64,000 nucleotides of DNA from Alphaproteobacteria bacterium (GTDB lineage: Bacteria > Pseudomonadota > Alphaproteobacteria > Bin95): the NCBI GenBank assembly GCA_964291285.2, contig OZ219788.1, forward strand, positions 608,001 to 672,000, given 5' to 3'. The position numbers and the translations under genes were made by a program. The notes below the pieces were generated by a model that saw nothing but the letters and a program-made list of their open reading frames with translations, was not told where the DNA came from and searched no databases. This document shows, in pieces, positions 1-5,741 of this stretch (the first letter of the stretch is position 1; each line of letters opens with the position of its first letter).

Positions 1-227
1 GGGACGCGGCTCCGGCCCGGACGGAAGCGCCGCGCACGGACAGCCGTGGGCGGCGTTCTTGCTTCCGGAGCACCGCAGGCGCCGCTATTCCCGGCTTGAT
101 ATCAGCCTGCCGGGCGTGGCCGACGCCGATCGGGCAGCGGAGCGAGCGTTCGGAACCTGAAAGTGACGTAAAGACAATAACTTGCGCCGTCATGGGGGTG
201 GCGCAAGGTCGGATTCCGCCGCGCCGT

Positions 228-261
228 TTTATGCGCGATAGCTTTCACTATCGCGCATAAT
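228..261 (+). other. lox-like recombination site 1 (13-8-13)
   Basis: TTTATGCGCGATA-GCTTTCAC-TATCGCGCATAAT: inverted arms around an asymmetric 8-bp spacer, next to a Cre-like recombinase. Confidence 0.85.
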
Positions 262-427
262 CTTGTCAATATTCCATCATGCTCGCCGGCCAGCCGCAAC
301 CGCAACAGGGCACAGCATTTCGCCCCAGGCCGGCATCAACCCGTTGAAACAGGACGATTCTTCAGGCTTGGACCGGTCCCGTCCGGGCCCCGCCGGCACG
401 GCACCGGCCCGCCGGCCCACGCCGATT

Positions 428-442
428 TTTACGCTCGATAGC
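428..442 (+). other. isolated lox-like half-site
   Basis: TTTACGCTCGATAGC is identical to one arm plus 2 spacer nt of site 2 (reverse complement); no partner arm. Confidence 0.6.
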
Positions 443-570
443 ATTTCTTGAATCCACGCCTGTCCGGCGCGCACGGGCCCGATTTCGACTGCTAAACCAC
501 TGCACCCGTCGTCAAAGACCATCCTAGCATTGTGGTCCGACGGCAGCCTCCGTGCATCCCCTGGGGCAAT

Positions 571-1554
571 TCAGCCGCGCCCCTGCATCCGGGCCAACTG
601 CGCCGCACCGCTGCGCCTCGCGAGCAGCCGCTCGCCGTAGCGGTTGACCATCGCGGTCGACTTCCACCGGCCCGCATGAAGGATTGAAGGCAGCTCGATG
701 CCGGCGGCGACCATGTCCTGCGTCGCGCCGACCCGGGCGCTGTGTCCCGACAAGCCCGCCGCCACAGTCTCCGGCAAGCCGGCCTCGCGCGCCATCGTCT
801 TGATAATGCGCGGCACCTGGCAGGGATGCAGCCCGTCGCCGATCCGCCCGCTCTTGCCCACCGAACGGAACAACAGTCCCTCCGAAATCCCGGCGCGGTC
901 GAGCCACGCCCGGACCAGGCGGACGGTGTCCCGCCCGACCCAGACGATCTCGCCCCTGCCTTCGCAATCGGTCTTGGAGCGCCGGACCAGCAGGCTGCCG
1001 TCGCCCGGCATTTCTTCAAACAGGTCGGAGACTTGCAGGGAGACCAGCTCCGTCCGGCGCAGCATCGCATCGTAGGCGACGGCAAGCAGGGCCCGGTTGC
1101 GGTCGTCGAGGAGTCTCTCGCCCGCCGCCTCCAGCAGGCGTTGGCGCAGCGGCCATGTCAGTCCCGTCGCCTGGTCCTGCCGGCGCCCCTTCTTCCGGTG
1201 CATGCGCTGGAGCGCCAGCCGCACCGGCGGGCTCTTGAGCGTCTTTTCCAGCCCAAGCGCCCGGTGGGCGATGGCGATGCTGGTGACGTAGCGGCGCACC
1301 GTGGCGGGCGCCCGCTCCTCCGCCCTGGCGTCGATGAAGGAGGCGACGGTCTCCGGCCTGGCCGGCAGCGCTCGTTCCCCGCGTTCGGCGCACCACTCGG
1401 CGAAGATGGCGAGATCGGACCTGAGCGCCCGTTCGGTGCTGTCGCTGAACGCGCCGCGCGCCGCCCGGACGAACTGTCCGAGCTGTTCGGCGAGCGCCGC
1501 TTCCCGGTCCGCCGCCGACTCCTCACAGGCGTTGAACGGGGGTTCAAGGAACAT
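571..1554 (-). CDS. Cre-like tyrosine recombinase
   Basis: Motifs AMLRRTEL (R), RRSKTD (K), SGHSARVGA (H-x-x-R, as in Cre), AGRW..MVNRY (W, catalytic Y); N-terminal SAM-like core-binding domain. Confidence 0.93.
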   Translation of the reverse strand: MFLEPPFNACEESAADREAALAEQLGQFVRAARGAFSDSTERALRSDLAIFAEWCAERGERALPARPETVASFIDARAEERAPATVRRYVTSIAIAHRALGLEKTLKSPPVRLALQRMHRKKGRRQDQATGLTWPLRQRLLEAAGERLLDDRNRALLAVAYDAMLRRTELVSLQVSDLFEEMPGDGSLLVRRSKTDCEGRGEIVWVGRDTVRLVRAWLDRAGISEGLLFRSVGKSGRIGDGLHPCQVPRIIKTMAREAGLPETVAAGLSGHSARVGATQDMVAAGIELPSILHAGRWKSTAMVNRYGERLLARRSGAAQLARMQGRG

Positions 1555-1592
1555 TCAGGGGCCTCCGGACCGTCCGCACACAGGAGCCCCGG

Positions 1593-1626
1593 ATTACGCG
1601 CGATAGTGAAAGCTATCGAGCGTAAA
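1593..1626 (-). other. lox-like recombination site 2, inverted relative to site 1
   Basis: Reverse complement TTTACGCTCGATA-GCTTTCAC-TATCGCGCGTAAT; 31/34 identical to site 1, same spacer. Confidence 0.85.
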
Positions 1627-1731
1627 CGGATGCAGGACGTGGGGGATGACACGGGGTGTCACGGTCTCGTCTCAGCCAGCGGTGCTCGGGTTCCCGCCGG
1701 GACCGTCCTTGCGTGAAGAAAGACGATCGCC

Positions 1732-2019
1732 ATGGATAGGATGTTCTACCGCTATGGCGGTTTCAGGACGGCGAACCGGATCGTGCTGGAGTTTTACGAC
1801 AGCCTCTTCCGGACGACGCTGAAGCGCTATTTCGAAGACATGGACATGCAGCGCGTCATTCGCCACCAGGTCCAGTTCGTTTCCTTCCTAACGGACGGCC
1901 CGGCCCGCTCCGCCCCGGCAGAGCCTGTCCCGGGTCCATCGAGGGCCTCGCGACGGCCTGACGCCGCACCGGGCGCGGGCGCCCGGCGCGGTTCGGAAAT
2001 CCCCGGGCATGTCCTCTAG
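1732..2019 (+). pseudogene. group 1 truncated hemoglobin, frameshifted/degenerate
   Basis: MFYRYGGF..IVLEFYD..YFEDMDMQRVIRHQVQFVSFLTDGP matches the trHbN pattern; the proximal-His segment (LSRVH) appears in a shifted frame near 1925. Confidence 0.65.
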
Positions 2020-2781: not shown

Positions 2782-2957
2782 GAAATACTCTACCGCGCCG
2801 CAGGAAAAATCTTCGCAGAAGCCCGGAATGCGGCGACGCCGCCACAGCTCCGAATCAATCGACCGCTCGCACCGTCTGCGGCGCTTGCGCCGCCCGGCCC
2901 GGCGGCGTGATGAAGCGTGCTGCAGCCGATGGGCGGCTGTGTCACAGGAGGATATCC

Positions 2958-4040
2958 ATGAAAATCAGAAATGCGCTTCTGACCGGAACCGCGCTGGCCT
3001 TCGCCGGTGCGCTGGCGGCCGGGCCCGCCTCGGCAGCCGACAAGCTGGCGCTCGGCCTCGGCGGCTACATGGAACAGTGGGTCGGCGCTGCCGAACGTAA
3101 GGACGACAACTCGGAAGGTGGCATCGACGTCCAGTCGGACTCGGAAATCTATTTCCAGGGCTCGCTGGAAGCCGACAACGGCATGAAGTTCACGGTCCAT
3201 GTGCAGCTCGAAGCCAACAACGAGGAAGACAAGCATCCCGACAAGACATCCGCGGACAAAGACTATAAGCCCCACAACACCGAGATCGACGAGTCGTTCG
3301 CCCGCATCAGCGGCGACTTCGGCACCGTCGAGATCGGCCAGCGCGACCCGATCCATGCGCGCACGCACTACGGCATCGCCGATGTCGGCGTCGGGCTGAA
3401 CTCGGGCGACACGCAGAAGTGGATCCCGGGCACCTATCTCAGCACCAACGGCTGGTTCCACGACAACCTGAACGTGATCTACATCTCGCCGCGCATGAAC
3501 GGCGTGCAGGTCGGCGTTTCCTACGGGGCGGACGCGGACAGCGAGAACTCGGTCGCCAGCGCGCCGGACGGCAACGACAACGCCGTGGTGGCCGCGGGCA
3601 TCAACCTCAACCAGACCGTCGGGGACGCCGGCGTCAAGATCTCGCTCGGCCACATGAACCGCGAGCAGGCGGGCGACAAGGACGCCAAGGCCTTCACCAA
3701 TGCGGGCCTTGCGGTCTCGATGGGCGCGTTCGGCTTCAATGCCGCCTGGGCCGACATGGACGGCGGCGACGACACCAAACAGACCGATGACTGGTCGGTC
3801 TGGGGCGCGAGCGTCACCTATTCGGACGGTCCGATGGCGGTCAGCCTCGGTCACATGACGCATGAGGAAGACGCCGGCGGCGAGCGCAGCTCAACGATGC
3901 TCTCGGGCAGCTACAAGCTGGCGCCGGGCGTCTCGTGGGCCACTTCGGTGTTCGTGGTCGAGGACGACACCAGCGCGGTCAAGACGCCCACCGGCAACGA
4001 AGGCACGGCATTCGTGACCGGCGTCAAGATCGGCTTCTGA
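2958..4040 (+). CDS. Gram-negative outer-membrane porin
   Basis: RBS AGGAGG, signal peptide, DSEIYFQGS and GDFGTVEIG motifs, amphipathic beta strands, C-terminal Phe. Confidence 0.88.
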   Translation: MKIRNALLTGTALAFAGALAAGPASAADKLALGLGGYMEQWVGAAERKDDNSEGGIDVQSDSEIYFQGSLEADNGMKFTVHVQLEANNEEDKHPDKTSADKDYKPHNTEIDESFARISGDFGTVEIGQRDPIHARTHYGIADVGVGLNSGDTQKWIPGTYLSTNGWFHDNLNVIYISPRMNGVQVGVSYGADADSENSVASAPDGNDNAVVAAGINLNQTVGDAGVKISLGHMNREQAGDKDAKAFTNAGLAVSMGAFGFNAAWADMDGGDDTKQTDDWSVWGASVTYSDGPMAVSLGHMTHEEDAGGERSSTMLSGSYKLAPGVSWATSVFVVEDDTSAVKTPTGNEGTAFVTGVKIGF

Positions 4041-4124: not shown

Positions 4125-5741
4125 ATGAGAACCATGAAACATTGGGCTCTGGCGGCAGCCGCCGCTGCGGCCTTGGCACTTGCGGGCTGCGGCGGAGGCG
4201 GAAGTTCGTCCTCGGCGCCTCCGGCTGGCCCCACGGCCGCAGAAATGCTCGCCGAGCGGCAAATGGAGCAGCGCAACGCCATTTCGACCGCAATCACCAT
4301 GGCGGAAACCGCCGTTGCCGGTGTGAACGACGACTCCACCGACAGCGAAGTCAGCGCTGCCGATATGGCGGTCACGGCCGCCAGGACGGCGATCACGAAT
4401 GCGGCCGATCTCCCGCCAGAGGAGACAGCCGCGAACACCGGAACGGTCGATGCGATCGCAAACCGTCTGACTGCGGCAAAGTCAAGCCGCACGGCCGCGC
4501 TGGACGAGGCCGACAAGGCGAACCGGGCGGCTATGGCGAAGACCGGCAAGGCGCTGCACGCGGCGCTGGGTCCGAACCAGGGCGGCACGAGCCCGCTCAC
4601 GAACATCGCCACACCTACCTTGTCGTCGGCAGGCCTCGCCATTAACGCCGCTGCAGGGGCGGGAGCACTCCCGGACGCCACAGACCCGGACTCCGTGACC
4701 CTCAAGGCCGGCGATTCCGCTGGTGCGTTGGGCAGTTGGATGGGCACGGACTACGCCCTTACCACAGGTACCGGTGCTTCGAAGGTCACCAACGAGGCCC
4801 GGGTGTACAACAACAAGGGTCCGGGGAAGACGGTCTCATTGGCCGCCGCGGGAATTACCGTGCATACGGCCGCGACAGCAGGTGACGACATCAAGGGCTA
4901 CTACACCGTTGACGAGACTGCTGACCTGGCCAAAATCATGGGCGCCGCCTTCACGCATTCGGGAACGCAGAACCACGCGTACGATTCCGATAATGAAGTC
5001 GCGTTCACTACCCGAGGCACCTTCGACGGTGCGCCAGGCGAGTACCGTTGCACGGGGACTTGCTCCTCGACCAATGACGGCACGGGCAGCCCGAGCGCAT
5101 TGGCCGGGGTGTGGCACTTCAAGCCCGACGCGGGCGCGATGGTGCACCAGCCCGATACCACTTACCTGTACTACGGCTGGTGGGTGAGCAAGGACAGCGA
5201 CGGCGGGCCGACGGCGGCCAGCGCGTTTACTGGTGTCGTGTTCCCGACCACAGGCTCCGCACCTACAGGTGTTGGTGGTGCCACCATCAACGGCTCGGCG
5301 ACCTATGCCGGCCACGCTGCCGGCAAGTTCGCCATGAGCAACGTGCTCGACGGCACGGGCAATGGCGGCCACTTCACGGCGGATGCCGAGCTTAAGGCCA
5401 CGTTCGGGTCCGGCACGACCGCAGGCATGACGGGCACGATCGACAACTTCCGGCTGAACGACGGGTCCGAGGATCCGGGCTGGAGCGTGGCGCTGGCCCG
5501 TGGTGCCTGGGGAGCCGACGGAGCAATCACGGCTCCCACCGCCGACCCCACGGTCTGGTCGATCAACGGCAACAAGGCGCCGGCGTCCGGCACCTGGAGC
5601 GGCCAGATGTATGACGAAATGCCCGGAAACGCTCCGGACGGCGACGGCAGCGACGTCCCAACCACGGTGACCGGAACCTTCTATTCCGAGTTCAGCACCA
5701 TTGGTCGGATGGCCGGCGCGTTCGGTGCCGAGAAGCAATAG
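4125..5741 (+). CDS. surface lipoprotein with TbpB-like C-terminal beta-barrel (Slam substrate)
   Basis: Lipobox LAGC followed by a GGGGSSSS linker; YYGWW, GSATYAGHAAG, FTADAELKATF and terminal GAFGAEKQ motifs; adjacent to a Slam gene. Confidence 0.82.
   Translation: MRTMKHWALAAAAAAALALAGCGGGGSSSSAPPAGPTAAEMLAERQMEQRNAISTAITMAETAVAGVNDDSTDSEVSAADMAVTAARTAITNAADLPPEETAANTGTVDAIANRLTAAKSSRTAALDEADKANRAAMAKTGKALHAALGPNQGGTSPLTNIATPTLSSAGLAINAAAGAGALPDATDPDSVTLKAGDSAGALGSWMGTDYALTTGTGASKVTNEARVYNNKGPGKTVSLAAAGITVHTAATAGDDIKGYYTVDETADLAKIMGAAFTHSGTQNHAYDSDNEVAFTTRGTFDGAPGEYRCTGTCSSTNDGTGSPSALAGVWHFKPDAGAMVHQPDTTYLYYGWWVSKDSDGGPTAASAFTGVVFPTTGSAPTGVGGATINGSATYAGHAAGKFAMSNVLDGTGNGGHFTADAELKATFGSGTTAGMTGTIDNFRLNDGSEDPGWSVALARGAWGADGAITAPTADPTVWSINGNKAPASGTWSGQMYDEMPGNAPDGDGSDVPTTVTGTFYSEFSTIGRMAGAFGAEKQ

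What the first reader, a model, noticed from the sequence alone, without database searches (positions are those of the whole stretch)
228..1626. Cre-like recombinase enclosed by its own inverted pair of 34-bp lox-like sites
Seen: site 1 (228-261) is TTTATGCGCGATA-GCTTTCAC-TATCGCGCATAAT. Site 2 (1593-1626, minus strand) is TTTACGCTCGATA-GCTTTCAC-TATCGCGCGTAAT. They are 31/34 identical, share the asymmetric spacer, point in opposite directions and enclose the recombinase gene. Known: loxP has this 13-8-13 architecture, and inverted sites with matching spacers give inversion. The protein shares Cre's SGHSARVGA motif and W..Y catalytic pair. Inference: this is a self-inverting ~1.36-kb cassette, and a recombinase/target pair whose arms differ from loxP, so it is potentially orthogonal.
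Basis: partly seen in the sequence, partly recalled or inferred. Interest (0 to 1): 0.92.

Follow-up and report, generated by a model that had tools for sequence, protein, structure and literature searches.

The report
Cre-like self-contained invertible gene switch
A relative of the Cre recombinase sits between two mirror-image lox-like sites. In related bacteria this same unit lies directly in front of giant surface-adhesin genes, so it is most likely a flip-switch for them, although the copy in this window has lost its adhesin gene.

Summary
Two 34-bp 13-8-13 sites (228-261 and 1593-1626) are 31/34 identical, inverted, and enclose a 327-aa tyrosine recombinase (571-1554, minus). Its best solved relative is Cre (E 1e-24), and all six catalytic residues are present.

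It is not a one-off. The same genome has a second cassette on another replicon. I located both sites in 37 related cassettes from alpha- and gammaproteobacterial genomes. In 37 of 37 the central 6 bp of the two sites are identical in inverted orientation, although 13 different spacers occur (a 14th in the L063 variant). This is concerted evolution, which implies that the two sites recombine with each other.

New points:
- An accessory half-site (428-440) co-varies with the arms.
- A near-invariant TTGACA lies just inside site 1 and points outward.
- In 21 of 30 loci, a giant outward-reading ORF starts outside the other site. All 12 ORFs over 850 aa that I tested (of 16 outward ORFs tested) carry adhesin-type repeats. 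Several leaders contain (CCTG)n tracts.

Best reading: a Hin-like phase-variation switch built from a Cre/lox-type system. The window copy is an orphan, because its target gene is truncated.

Main weakness: no flipped copy was seen in any assembly, and the contig-level read data were uninformative.

The parts
1..227 (.). Conserved flank outside site 1, the 'parking' side. It holds a strong hairpin at about 22-67 followed by a T-rich tail on the + strand, and a GC-rich inverted repeat at 181-207 followed by TTATTGTCTTT on the - strand.
   Evidence: It is 77-87% identical in 13 related loci and always lies on this side of the cassette. The fold of 20-75 (+) has z = -3.84. The fold of 150-227 (-) is not significant, z = -0.42.
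228..261 (.). Lox-like site 1 (13-8-13; central 6 bp CTTTCA as read on the + strand). It lies next to the TTGACA end of the cassette.
264..269 (-). TTGACA hexamer (-35-like) just inside site 1, reading out of the cassette through the site.
   Evidence: ATTGACA is invariant in 13 of 13 aligned loci. It is also present next to this site in most other cassettes; the exceptions are L041, L047 and L048. No full sigma-70 consensus was found.
428..445 (+). Accessory half-site: a single recombinase-binding arm (TTTACGCTCGATA) plus conserved GCATT.
   Evidence: It is conserved in 13 of 13 loci and changes together with the full-site arms, for example in L032 and L055. In L063 a full site occupies this position.
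571..1554 (-). Cre-family tyrosine recombinase, 327 aa. Catalytic residues R166, K194, H271, R274, W297, Y306.
   Evidence: Pfam Phage_integrase 6e-13. The best PDB match is Cre, 1.2e-24 over residues 31-312.
1555..1592 (-). 38-nt leader of the recombinase gene with GGAGG (complement of 1561-1565). It has no room for a promoter of its own.
   Evidence: The spacing of 37-39 nt between site and ATG is constant in nearly all cassettes.
1593..1626 (.). Lox-like site 2, inverted relative to site 1, with the same spacer.
1627..1822 (+). Remnant of the target-gene leader. A purine-rich stretch is followed by ATG at 1646, and the 58-aa ORF begins MTRGVTVSS. In relatives the same start (MTRDVTVGS) opens adhesin ORFs of 720 aa or more (L043, L044). 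Here it stops after 58 codons.

Best explanation
This is a self-contained DNA-inversion switch (inverton) of the Hin type, built from a Cre/lox-type system. The recombinase binds the two inverted 34-bp sites, and also a single accessory arm inside the cassette, and exchanges strands in the central 6 bp. This flips the roughly 1.4-kb segment that carries its own gene. The segment ends with an outward-facing promoter element (TTGACA) next to site 1. In the orientation seen in all assemblies, this end faces a conserved flank that carries hairpin and T-tract structures (OFF, or 'parked'). After inversion it would face site 2. In relatives, a ribosome-binding site and the start codon of a giant adhesin gene lie 5-190 nt outside site 2 (ON). 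Shown here: the sites, the enzyme family, the conservation of the pair, the spacer co-variation and the adhesin neighbourhood. Inferred: that inversion occurs now, that TTGACA is the promoter, and which orientation is ON. The window's own copy on the 797-kb replicon keeps an intact enzyme and both sites, but its target ORF stops after 58 codons, so it is probably an orphan switch. The paralogue on contig C3 still abuts a cadherin/Calx-beta protein gene.
For: (1) The enzyme is Cre-like: Cre is the best PDB match at 1e-24 and the six catalytic residues are present.
(2) A second cassette lies in the same genome, with the same 1365-bp site spacing, an 85% identical protein and a different spacer that is again shared by its two sites.
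(3) In 37 of 37 cassettes where both sites were located, the central 6 bp are identical in inverted orientation, across 13 spacer types (CTCTAT in L046 is the 13th; CTGTGA in the L063 variant makes 14). Of 200,000 shuffles of 35 of these pairs (12 types), none matched at all pairs; the mean was 8.7 matches.
(4) The arms and the accessory half-site change together between lineages.
(5) In 18 of 30 loci, an outward ORF of at least 600 aa, or one running off the locus, starts within 200 nt outside the recombinase-proximal site. The count is 21 of 30 within 1.6 kb. All 12 ORFs over 850 aa tested carry Calx-beta, cadherin-like, fn3, SWM, He_PIG or Big domains.
(6) An SD-like GGTGGAG lies about 8 nt and start codons about 16-22 nt outside the site, so the promoter has to lie within or beyond the site.
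(7) TTGACA is invariant in 13 of 13 aligned loci.
(8) L063 is a 69% identical relative. Its two inverted sites flank only a 320-bp segment whose TTGACA end faces the opposite way from the standard cassettes, and a gene with fn3, SWM and He_PIG domains follows.
(9) (CCTG)n tracts of 2 to about 19 copies occur in the adhesin leaders, a second hallmark of phase-variable loci.
Against: No cassette was seen in the flipped orientation. Flank homology lies on the same side in all 13 loci that have it. All 19 TTGACA ends in four further genomes are followed by flank-type sequence rather than a GGTGGAG leader, and the four ends printed (L093, L096, L100, L101; L096 and L100 belong to cassettes already counted) likewise show no leader after the site. 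The two predicted flipped junctions were found in 0 of 37 genomes of the family. Logan contigs of three runs of the same organism show the assembled orientation only, but contigs drop rare variants. No full sigma-70 promoter consensus was found in 1-2400; the would-be -10 falls in the variable spacer. The terminator-like hairpin just outside site 1 is not significant by folding (z = -0.42 in the window, -1.27 in L026). The window copy has no adhesin gene. Which orientation is ON is therefore a guess based on one hexamer.
Confidence: 0.6

Rival explanations
1. The two sites are the ends of a small mobile element (a tyrosine-recombinase transposon), or are att-like junctions left by integration. 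On this view the recombinase moves the unit rather than flipping it.
For: The unit is multi-copy: 2 intact copies and 1 remnant in this genome, and 9 TTGACA-plus-site ends in G061. Neighbouring genes differ between copies. Homology between the C3 and C4 copies stops at the outer edge of site 2.
Against: Homology runs about 700 bp beyond site 1. Among other loci it also runs about 100 nt beyond site 2, in two leader types. The sites are therefore internal, not terminal. Sites in inverted orientation cannot excise the segment between them. No lox-like site was found at the far end of the conserved block.
Confidence: 0.12
2. The sites serve replicon maintenance, as loxP does for the P1 plasmid: they resolve dimers or cointegrates of the large secondary replicons. 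The second, inverted site is a by-product or an operator.
For: Cre's natural role is recalled from memory and comes from no call. Both G000 copies lie on multi-replicon contigs, and a TrwC relaxase gene lies near the C4 copy.
Against: One site would be enough for resolution. Several genomes carry many cassettes per contig: three on contig 5 and two on contig 3 of G061. The relaxase neighbourhood is not conserved: only L016/L030 have one, and on the other side. The strict association with adhesin gene starts is left unexplained.
Confidence: 0.08
3. The sites are only operators. The recombinase, or a catalytically idle descendant, binds them to repress its own gene and the divergent adhesin gene, perhaps by looping, and inversion no longer occurs.
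For: Site 2 lies between two divergent start codons. All assemblies show one orientation. An accessory arm suggests a higher-order complex.
Against: Binding alone does not need identical crossover spacers, yet the spacers match in 37 of 37 cassettes across 13 types. All catalytic residues are kept.
Confidence: 0.1

Closest known systems
Cre/loxP of phage P1 and the Cre-type Y-SSR toolbox (Dre, Vika, VCre and others; Jelicic et al. 2023, PMC10250229; passages read)
   Same: It has the same enzyme fold and catalytic residues. The target is 34 bp, with 13-bp inverted arms around an 8-bp asymmetric spacer. The target lies within 1 kb of the gene, which is exactly the criterion that paper used to nominate about 500 recombinase/site pairs.
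   Different: Here there are two sites in fixed inverted orientation enclosing the gene, plus a conserved single accessory arm. The natural role appears to be gene switching. In the passages I read, the paper does not mention paired inverted sites, alphaproteobacteria or Defluviicoccus. Its supplementary list could not be opened.
Hin/hix H-segment of Salmonella (named as the example of a recombinase within its invertible segment in PMC5903667; passage read)
   Same: The layout matches: site, recombinase gene, outward promoter, site, then the target surface-protein gene, with the recombinase inside the flipping segment.
   Different: Hin is a serine invertase that uses an enhancer and Fis (recalled). 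This enzyme is a tyrosine recombinase of the Cre type with lox-like sites.
FimB/FimE-fimS and other tyrosine-recombinase invertons (MrpI, RecV, Bacteroides Tsr; search listings)
   Same: A tyrosine recombinase flips a promoter-bearing segment next to an adhesin or surface-structure operon.
   Different: Those recombinases sit outside short (about 200-400 bp) invertible elements with short inverted repeats. Here the cassette is 1.4 kb, carries the enzyme, and uses full 34-bp Cre-type sites. The L063 variant does have the classical outside-recombinase layout.
FLP/FRT of the yeast 2-micron plasmid (recalled, no call)
   Same: A simple tyrosine recombinase acts on two inverted copies of its own target in the same molecule.
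   Different: FLP inversion serves copy-number amplification of a plasmid. Nothing here suggests that.

Membership tests
Cre-type tyrosine site-specific recombinase system | C-terminal tyrosine-recombinase catalytic domain | tested here: met
   Pfam PF00589, E 6.3e-13, residues 138-306.
Cre-type tyrosine site-specific recombinase system | Closer to Cre than to Xer or integrase-type recombinases | tested here: met
   In the PDB search, 17 Cre or Cre-derived sequences score 1e-24 to 9e-23, against XerD at 1e-4. NCBIfam Xer models score far below their cut-offs.
Cre-type tyrosine site-specific recombinase system | Catalytic R-K-H-R-W-Y residues | tested here: met
   R166, K194, H271, R274, W297 and Y306 align with the Cre motifs LLRIAE, RTKT, SGHSARVGA and W...Y in the alignment. 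The Cre residue numbers are quoted from PMC10250229.
Cre-type tyrosine site-specific recombinase system | 34-bp target: 13-bp inverted arms around an 8-bp asymmetric spacer, close to the gene | tested here: met
   conserved in 37 cassettes.
Cre-type tyrosine site-specific recombinase system | Simple system: no accessory sites or factors needed | tested here: inconclusive
   A conserved, co-varying single arm lies inside the cassette. This hints at an accessory site, but whether it is needed cannot be told from sequence.
Cre-type tyrosine site-specific recombinase system | Recombination of the nominated sites by the protein | not testable with these tools
   Only indirect evidence is available: spacer co-variation in 37 of 37 cassettes.
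Inverton (phase-variable invertible promoter) | Segment bounded by inverted repeats, with a dedicated recombinase at the locus | tested here: met
Inverton (phase-variable invertible promoter) | Target gene starts next to one repeat and lacks room for its own promoter | tested here: met
   Met in relatives and in the C3 paralogue. In the window copy only a 58-codon remnant is left.
Inverton (phase-variable invertible promoter) | Promoter inside the segment, reading outward | tested here: inconclusive
   TTGACA is invariant next to site 1, but no matching -10 was found and the scan made no consensus call.
Inverton (phase-variable invertible promoter) | Both orientations present in populations | tested here: not met
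   No flipped copy was found in the assemblies. Logan contigs show one orientation. Raw reads were not available.
Serine invertases (Hin/Gin/Cin) | Serine-recombinase catalytic domain | tested here: not met
   Only the tyrosine-recombinase domain was found.
Transposable element with terminal inverted repeats | Repeats mark the ends of the mobile unit | tested here: not met
   Conserved sequence continues beyond both sites.

The most novel reading that the evidence does not exclude
This may be a natural, portable Cre/lox-type 'switch cartridge': enzyme, two sites, accessory arm, outward promoter and parking flank together, about 2.1 kb. It has diversified into many mutually orthogonal versions, with 13 crossover spacers and several arm types. 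One genome can then run up to seven or more independent flip-switches, each gating a different giant adhesin, with tetranucleotide-repeat slippage layered on top. Because the enzyme gene flips with the promoter, its own expression would depend on orientation, which could explain the extreme bias towards one state.
Probability: 0.35. Interest if true: 0.8.

Novelty: new variant of a known kind. Interest (0 to 1): 0.62.

Why it matters
Cre-type recombinases are known mainly as phage and plasmid maintenance enzymes and as laboratory tools. Here a whole family appears to work as built-in phase-variation switches for giant adhesins in environmental alpha- and gammaproteobacteria. These include Defluviicoccus-like organisms known from wastewater and sponge metagenomes.

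Evolution has already made a set of recombinase/arm/spacer combinations that coexist in one cell. For genome engineers this is a ready source of candidate orthogonal lox-like systems, and a natural experiment on spacer and arm specificity.

For microbial ecology, it suggests that floc- or host-associated bacteria vary their adhesins stochastically by two layered mechanisms, inversion and repeat slippage.

Tried and rejected
Relaxase/oriT idea. A TrwC relaxase gene (L012 5571-9905) lies 160 bp beyond the conserved block X in C4. However, tblastn found relaxase pieces near only L016/L030, and on the other side. Rejected as a conserved partner.

Coding potential of the 700-bp flank plus X. Candidate small ORFs do not keep their frame across 13 loci, because of single-base indels. 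Pfam found nothing for the 60-aa ORF. The region is treated as non-coding and its function is unknown.

Rfam, run on L026 3800-6400 at E up to 1. Only a chance miRNA match far below threshold was found.

Promoter and terminator scan of 1-2400. It found 0 promoters and 1 terminator-like site inside the gene, no more than in shuffles.

Folding. The hairpin just outside site 1 and the recombinase leader hairpin are not better than shuffles. Only the hairpin at 20-75 (+) is. The fifth fold in that call (L075) used the wrong strand and is discarded.

Reads. Only Logan contigs were available. Contigs are broken by k-mers shared with the C3 paralogue. The loose end at 1625 is the C3 flank, not a flipped junction. 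The small-share sponge and marine runs were not used as evidence of habitat beyond the one run laid.

Integron-like array. There are no further sites outside the cassettes in G000.

Alignment of the L063 segment to standard 3' regions. It is not above shuffles, except for the last 25 nt or so next to TTGACA.

Contig-length lead. Among full-length homologues on contigs under 2 kb, 6 of 13 contigs are 1332-1375 nt, which is roughly site to site. It remains a lead only.

Earlier claim that paralogues always differ in spacer. This is dropped, because G061 has three cassettes with CTATTA and two with CTATCG.

An X-like partial copy on C1 beside a LuxR-type gene gave no insight.

Literature. Searches found no paper describing a Cre-type recombinase inside its own invertible segment, or phase variation in Defluviicoccus. 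The supplements of PMC10250229 (about 500 candidate pairs) were not opened and could contain members of this family.

Full report
WHAT IS THERE. The window is G000 contig C4, positions 608001-672000. Site 1 (228-261) and site 2 (1593-1626) are 34-bp 13-8-13 palindromes. They are 31/34 identical, share the asymmetric spacer GCTTTCAC and point in opposite directions. Between them lie three elements on the minus strand. The first is a 38-nt leader with GGAGG. The second is a 327-aa ORF (571-1554). The third is a 309-nt non-coding stretch (262-570). That stretch contains a single extra arm (428-440), identical to the outer arm of site 2, and it ends with ATTGACAAG directly against site 1.

The protein has a Phage_integrase domain. 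Its best solved relatives are 17 Cre or Cre-derived sequences (E 1e-24 to 9e-23), against XerD at 1e-4. In that alignment the Cre catalytic motifs are matched by R166, K194, H271, R274, W297 and Y306. The arm pattern occurs 9 times in the 6.1-Mb genome, and all 9 lie in this cassette or in one paralogous cassette.

IT IS A FAMILY, AND THE TWO SITES CO-EVOLVE. Contig C3 carries a second cassette with an 85% identical recombinase and the same 1365-bp site-to-site spacing. Its spacer is different (central CTGTCG, not CTTTCA), and again both of its sites share it. A third, truncated copy lies at C3:1415198-1415791.

I collected loci from the genus, from species-representative genomes, from JGI metagenomes and from five plus five further genomes by handle. 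Both sites could be located in 37 distinct cassettes. These include gammaproteobacterial MAGs whose recombinases are only 63-67% identical. The recombinase-proximal site ends 37-39 nt before the ATG in nearly all of them. Most cassettes are 1387-1409 bp long.

In 37 of 37 cassettes the central 6 bp of the two sites are identical in inverted orientation. Across cassettes, 13 different spacers occur: CTGTCG, CTGTTG, CTATTA, CTATCG, CTGTCA, CTATTG, CTGTTA, CTGTAA, CTGTAG, CTGTAT, CTTTAA, CTTTCA and CTCTAT. CTGTGA occurs in the L063 variant. In 200,000 random re-pairings of 35 of these cassettes, none matched throughout; the mean was 8.7 matches.

Relatedness inflates such a test, but the point stands. 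At least a dozen spacer changes have happened, and each is present at both sites. In Cre-type systems the spacer is where strands are exchanged, and it must match between partners (PMC10250229, passages). The simplest reading is therefore that the two sites of a cassette recombine with each other, which for inverted sites means inversion. The arms also change in concert between lineages (GCGCGATA, CTCGCGATA, CTCCCGATA, GCTCGATA, GGTTC.ATA), and the accessory single arm follows them.

WHAT THE SWITCH IS ATTACHED TO. Beyond site 1, homology continues in 13 loci for about 227 nt, and then for about 480 nt of block X. In C4 an IS256-family element has been inserted between these two parts, just left of the window start. 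This region does not keep a reading frame and matches no Rfam family.

Beyond site 2 there is a short conserved leader of two types. It has a GGTGGAG-like ribosome-binding site about 8 nt from the site and a start codon about 16-22 nt from it. In 18 of 30 loci, an ORF of at least 600 aa, or one running off the locus, starts within 200 nt and reads away from the cassette. In 21 of 30 a large outward ORF lies within 1.6 kb. I tested 16 outward ORFs with Pfam. All 12 that exceed 850 aa carry Calx-beta, cadherin-like, fn3, SWM-repeat, He_PIG, Big or LapA domains. One 646-aa ORF and two small ORFs gave no hit.

The C3 paralogue in this genome abuts such a gene (L013 1793-4924: Cadherin-like plus Calx-beta). 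Several leaders contain (CCTG)n tracts of 2, about 5, about 15 and about 19 copies. In L032 the tract is in frame with the giant ORF; in L040 it is not. This is the signature of slipped-strand phase variation.

The window's own leader keeps the start (ATG 1646, MTRGVTVSS, against MTRDVTVGS in L035 and L044), but the ORF stops after 58 codons. It is followed by gene fragments, including a LysR HTH-only ORF, and then by a porin gene. The C4 switch has therefore lost its target.

MECHANISM PROPOSED. The layout is site, recombinase, TTGACA, site, with the target gene start pressed against the far site. This is the layout of the Salmonella H segment, which PMC5903667 cites as the example of a recombinase inside its invertible segment. 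The difference is that this enzyme is a tyrosine recombinase of the Cre type.

ATTGACA is invariant in 13 of 13 aligned loci. It is present next to the distal site in most others; the exceptions are L041, L047 and L048. In the flipped state it would sit 36 nt plus the leader upstream of the adhesin start codon. In the observed state it faces the conserved flank.

L063 supports this indirectly. There the two inverted sites bracket only a 320-bp segment downstream of the recombinase gene, at the position where the standard cassettes keep the accessory arm. The TTGACA end of that segment faces the recombinase gene. A (CCTG)12 tract and an fn3/SWM/He_PIG protein gene follow.

WHAT IS NOT SHOWN. 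No flipped copy was found anywhere. The flank is on the same side in all 13 loci that have it. All 19 TTGACA ends in four more genomes are followed by flank-type sequence rather than an adhesin leader. The four ends printed (L093, L096, L100, L101) likewise show no leader after the site; L096 and L100 belong to cassettes already counted. Patterns for the two predicted flipped junctions match 0 of 37 family genomes. Logan contigs of three runs of this organism show only the assembled junctions, and contigs cannot show minority states.

The scan found no full promoter consensus. The would-be -10 falls in the variable spacer. The hairpin immediately outside site 1 is not significant by folding. 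So the claim that the sites recombine rests on co-variation, and the claim about which state is ON rests on one conserved hexamer and on geometry. The one-sided orientation could mean a strongly OFF-biased switch, a very low switching rate, or a system that no longer flips.

COMPARISON AND NOVELTY. By sequence and site architecture this is a member of the Cre-type Y-SSR group. Finding a lox-like palindrome beside such a gene is routine: Jelicic et al. nominated about 500 pairs this way. What I did not find in five literature searches, or in the passages I read, are these features:
- a conserved pair of inverted lox-like sites enclosing the gene;
- an accessory arm;
- a dedicated role in front of giant adhesin genes;
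- many diversified copies per genome (G061: nine TTGACA-plus-site ends, seven of them with intact recombinases and four spacer types).

Functionally it is a phase-variation inverton, which is a well-known kind. I therefore rate it as a new variant of a known kind.

VERDICT. The likely biological role, a Cre/lox-type flip-switch for giant adhesins that is orphaned in this window, is new to the finding. Confidence in the full mechanism is about 0.6; confidence that the two sites recombine with each other is about 0.8.

Noticed in passing
L012 10543-11995 (C4:606543-607995, ending 5 bp left of window position 1): A 1.45-kb IS256/Mutator-family insertion sequence (transposase L012 10614-11879, minus) splits the conserved flank from block X. 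Copies at 96-100% identity lie at L013 8243-9695 and 10043-11494, and at L014 5017-6414. The L014 copy truncates the third recombinase copy.
   Followed up: partly
L012 5571-9905 (minus), about 2.1-6.4 kb left of the window start: A 1444-aa TrwC-type relaxase/helicase gene, suggesting that this part of the 797-kb replicon is or was conjugative.
   Followed up: partly
L032, L040, L034 and L063 leaders (for example L063 2601-2656): (CCTG)n tetranucleotide tracts of 2 to about 19 copies lie between the switch and the giant adhesin ORFs. The tract is in frame in L032 and out of frame in L040. This is a likely second, slippage-based layer of phase variation.
   Followed up: partly
G000 C3:1415198-1415791 (L101, L011, L014): This remnant switch has only the last 94 residues of the recombinase, plus a TTGACA end and a site. 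The site's central spacer (TGAAAG) equals that of the window cassette, although the arms differ.
   Followed up: partly
window 470: One run of the same organism (X21) carries a 23-bp tandem duplication (copy of 471-493) inside the non-coding part of the cassette. The other two runs do not.
   Followed up: no
G061 (loci L069, L073, L077, L080, L082, L084-L087): One MAG carries nine TTGACA-plus-site ends: seven with full-length recombinases and two remnants, with four spacer types among the intact ones.
   Followed up: partly
L044 with L071 (G064 contig C7), and L043 with L078 (contig C10): Two cassettes are expanded to about 7.3 kb and 2.7 kb by extra DNA between the recombinase gene and the TTGACA end. 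Their spacers still match.
   Followed up: no
L051 / L018 (G007 C3): This cassette lacks the recombinase-proximal site. The sequence diverges at the inner edge of where the site should be. It is possibly a locked copy.
   Followed up: no
window 1732-2019, 2377-2781, 2907-4040, 4125-5741: Downstream of the orphan leader lie four ORFs: a 95-aa ORF with no Pfam hit, a LysR-type ORF with only the HTH domain, a Porin_4 gene, and a 538-aa lipoprotein-like ORF with no Pfam hit. The region looks like one of gene decay.
   Followed up: partly
homologue contigs listed: Among full-length homologues on contigs under 2 kb, lengths pile up at 1332-1375 nt (6 of 13), at about 1200 nt (2) and at 1538-1589 nt (4). 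This is as if metagenome assemblies break at the sites.
   Followed up: no
L068 (G000 C1:509157-509448): A 67% identical partial copy of block X lies beside a LuxR-type regulator gene, away from any cassette.
   Followed up: partly
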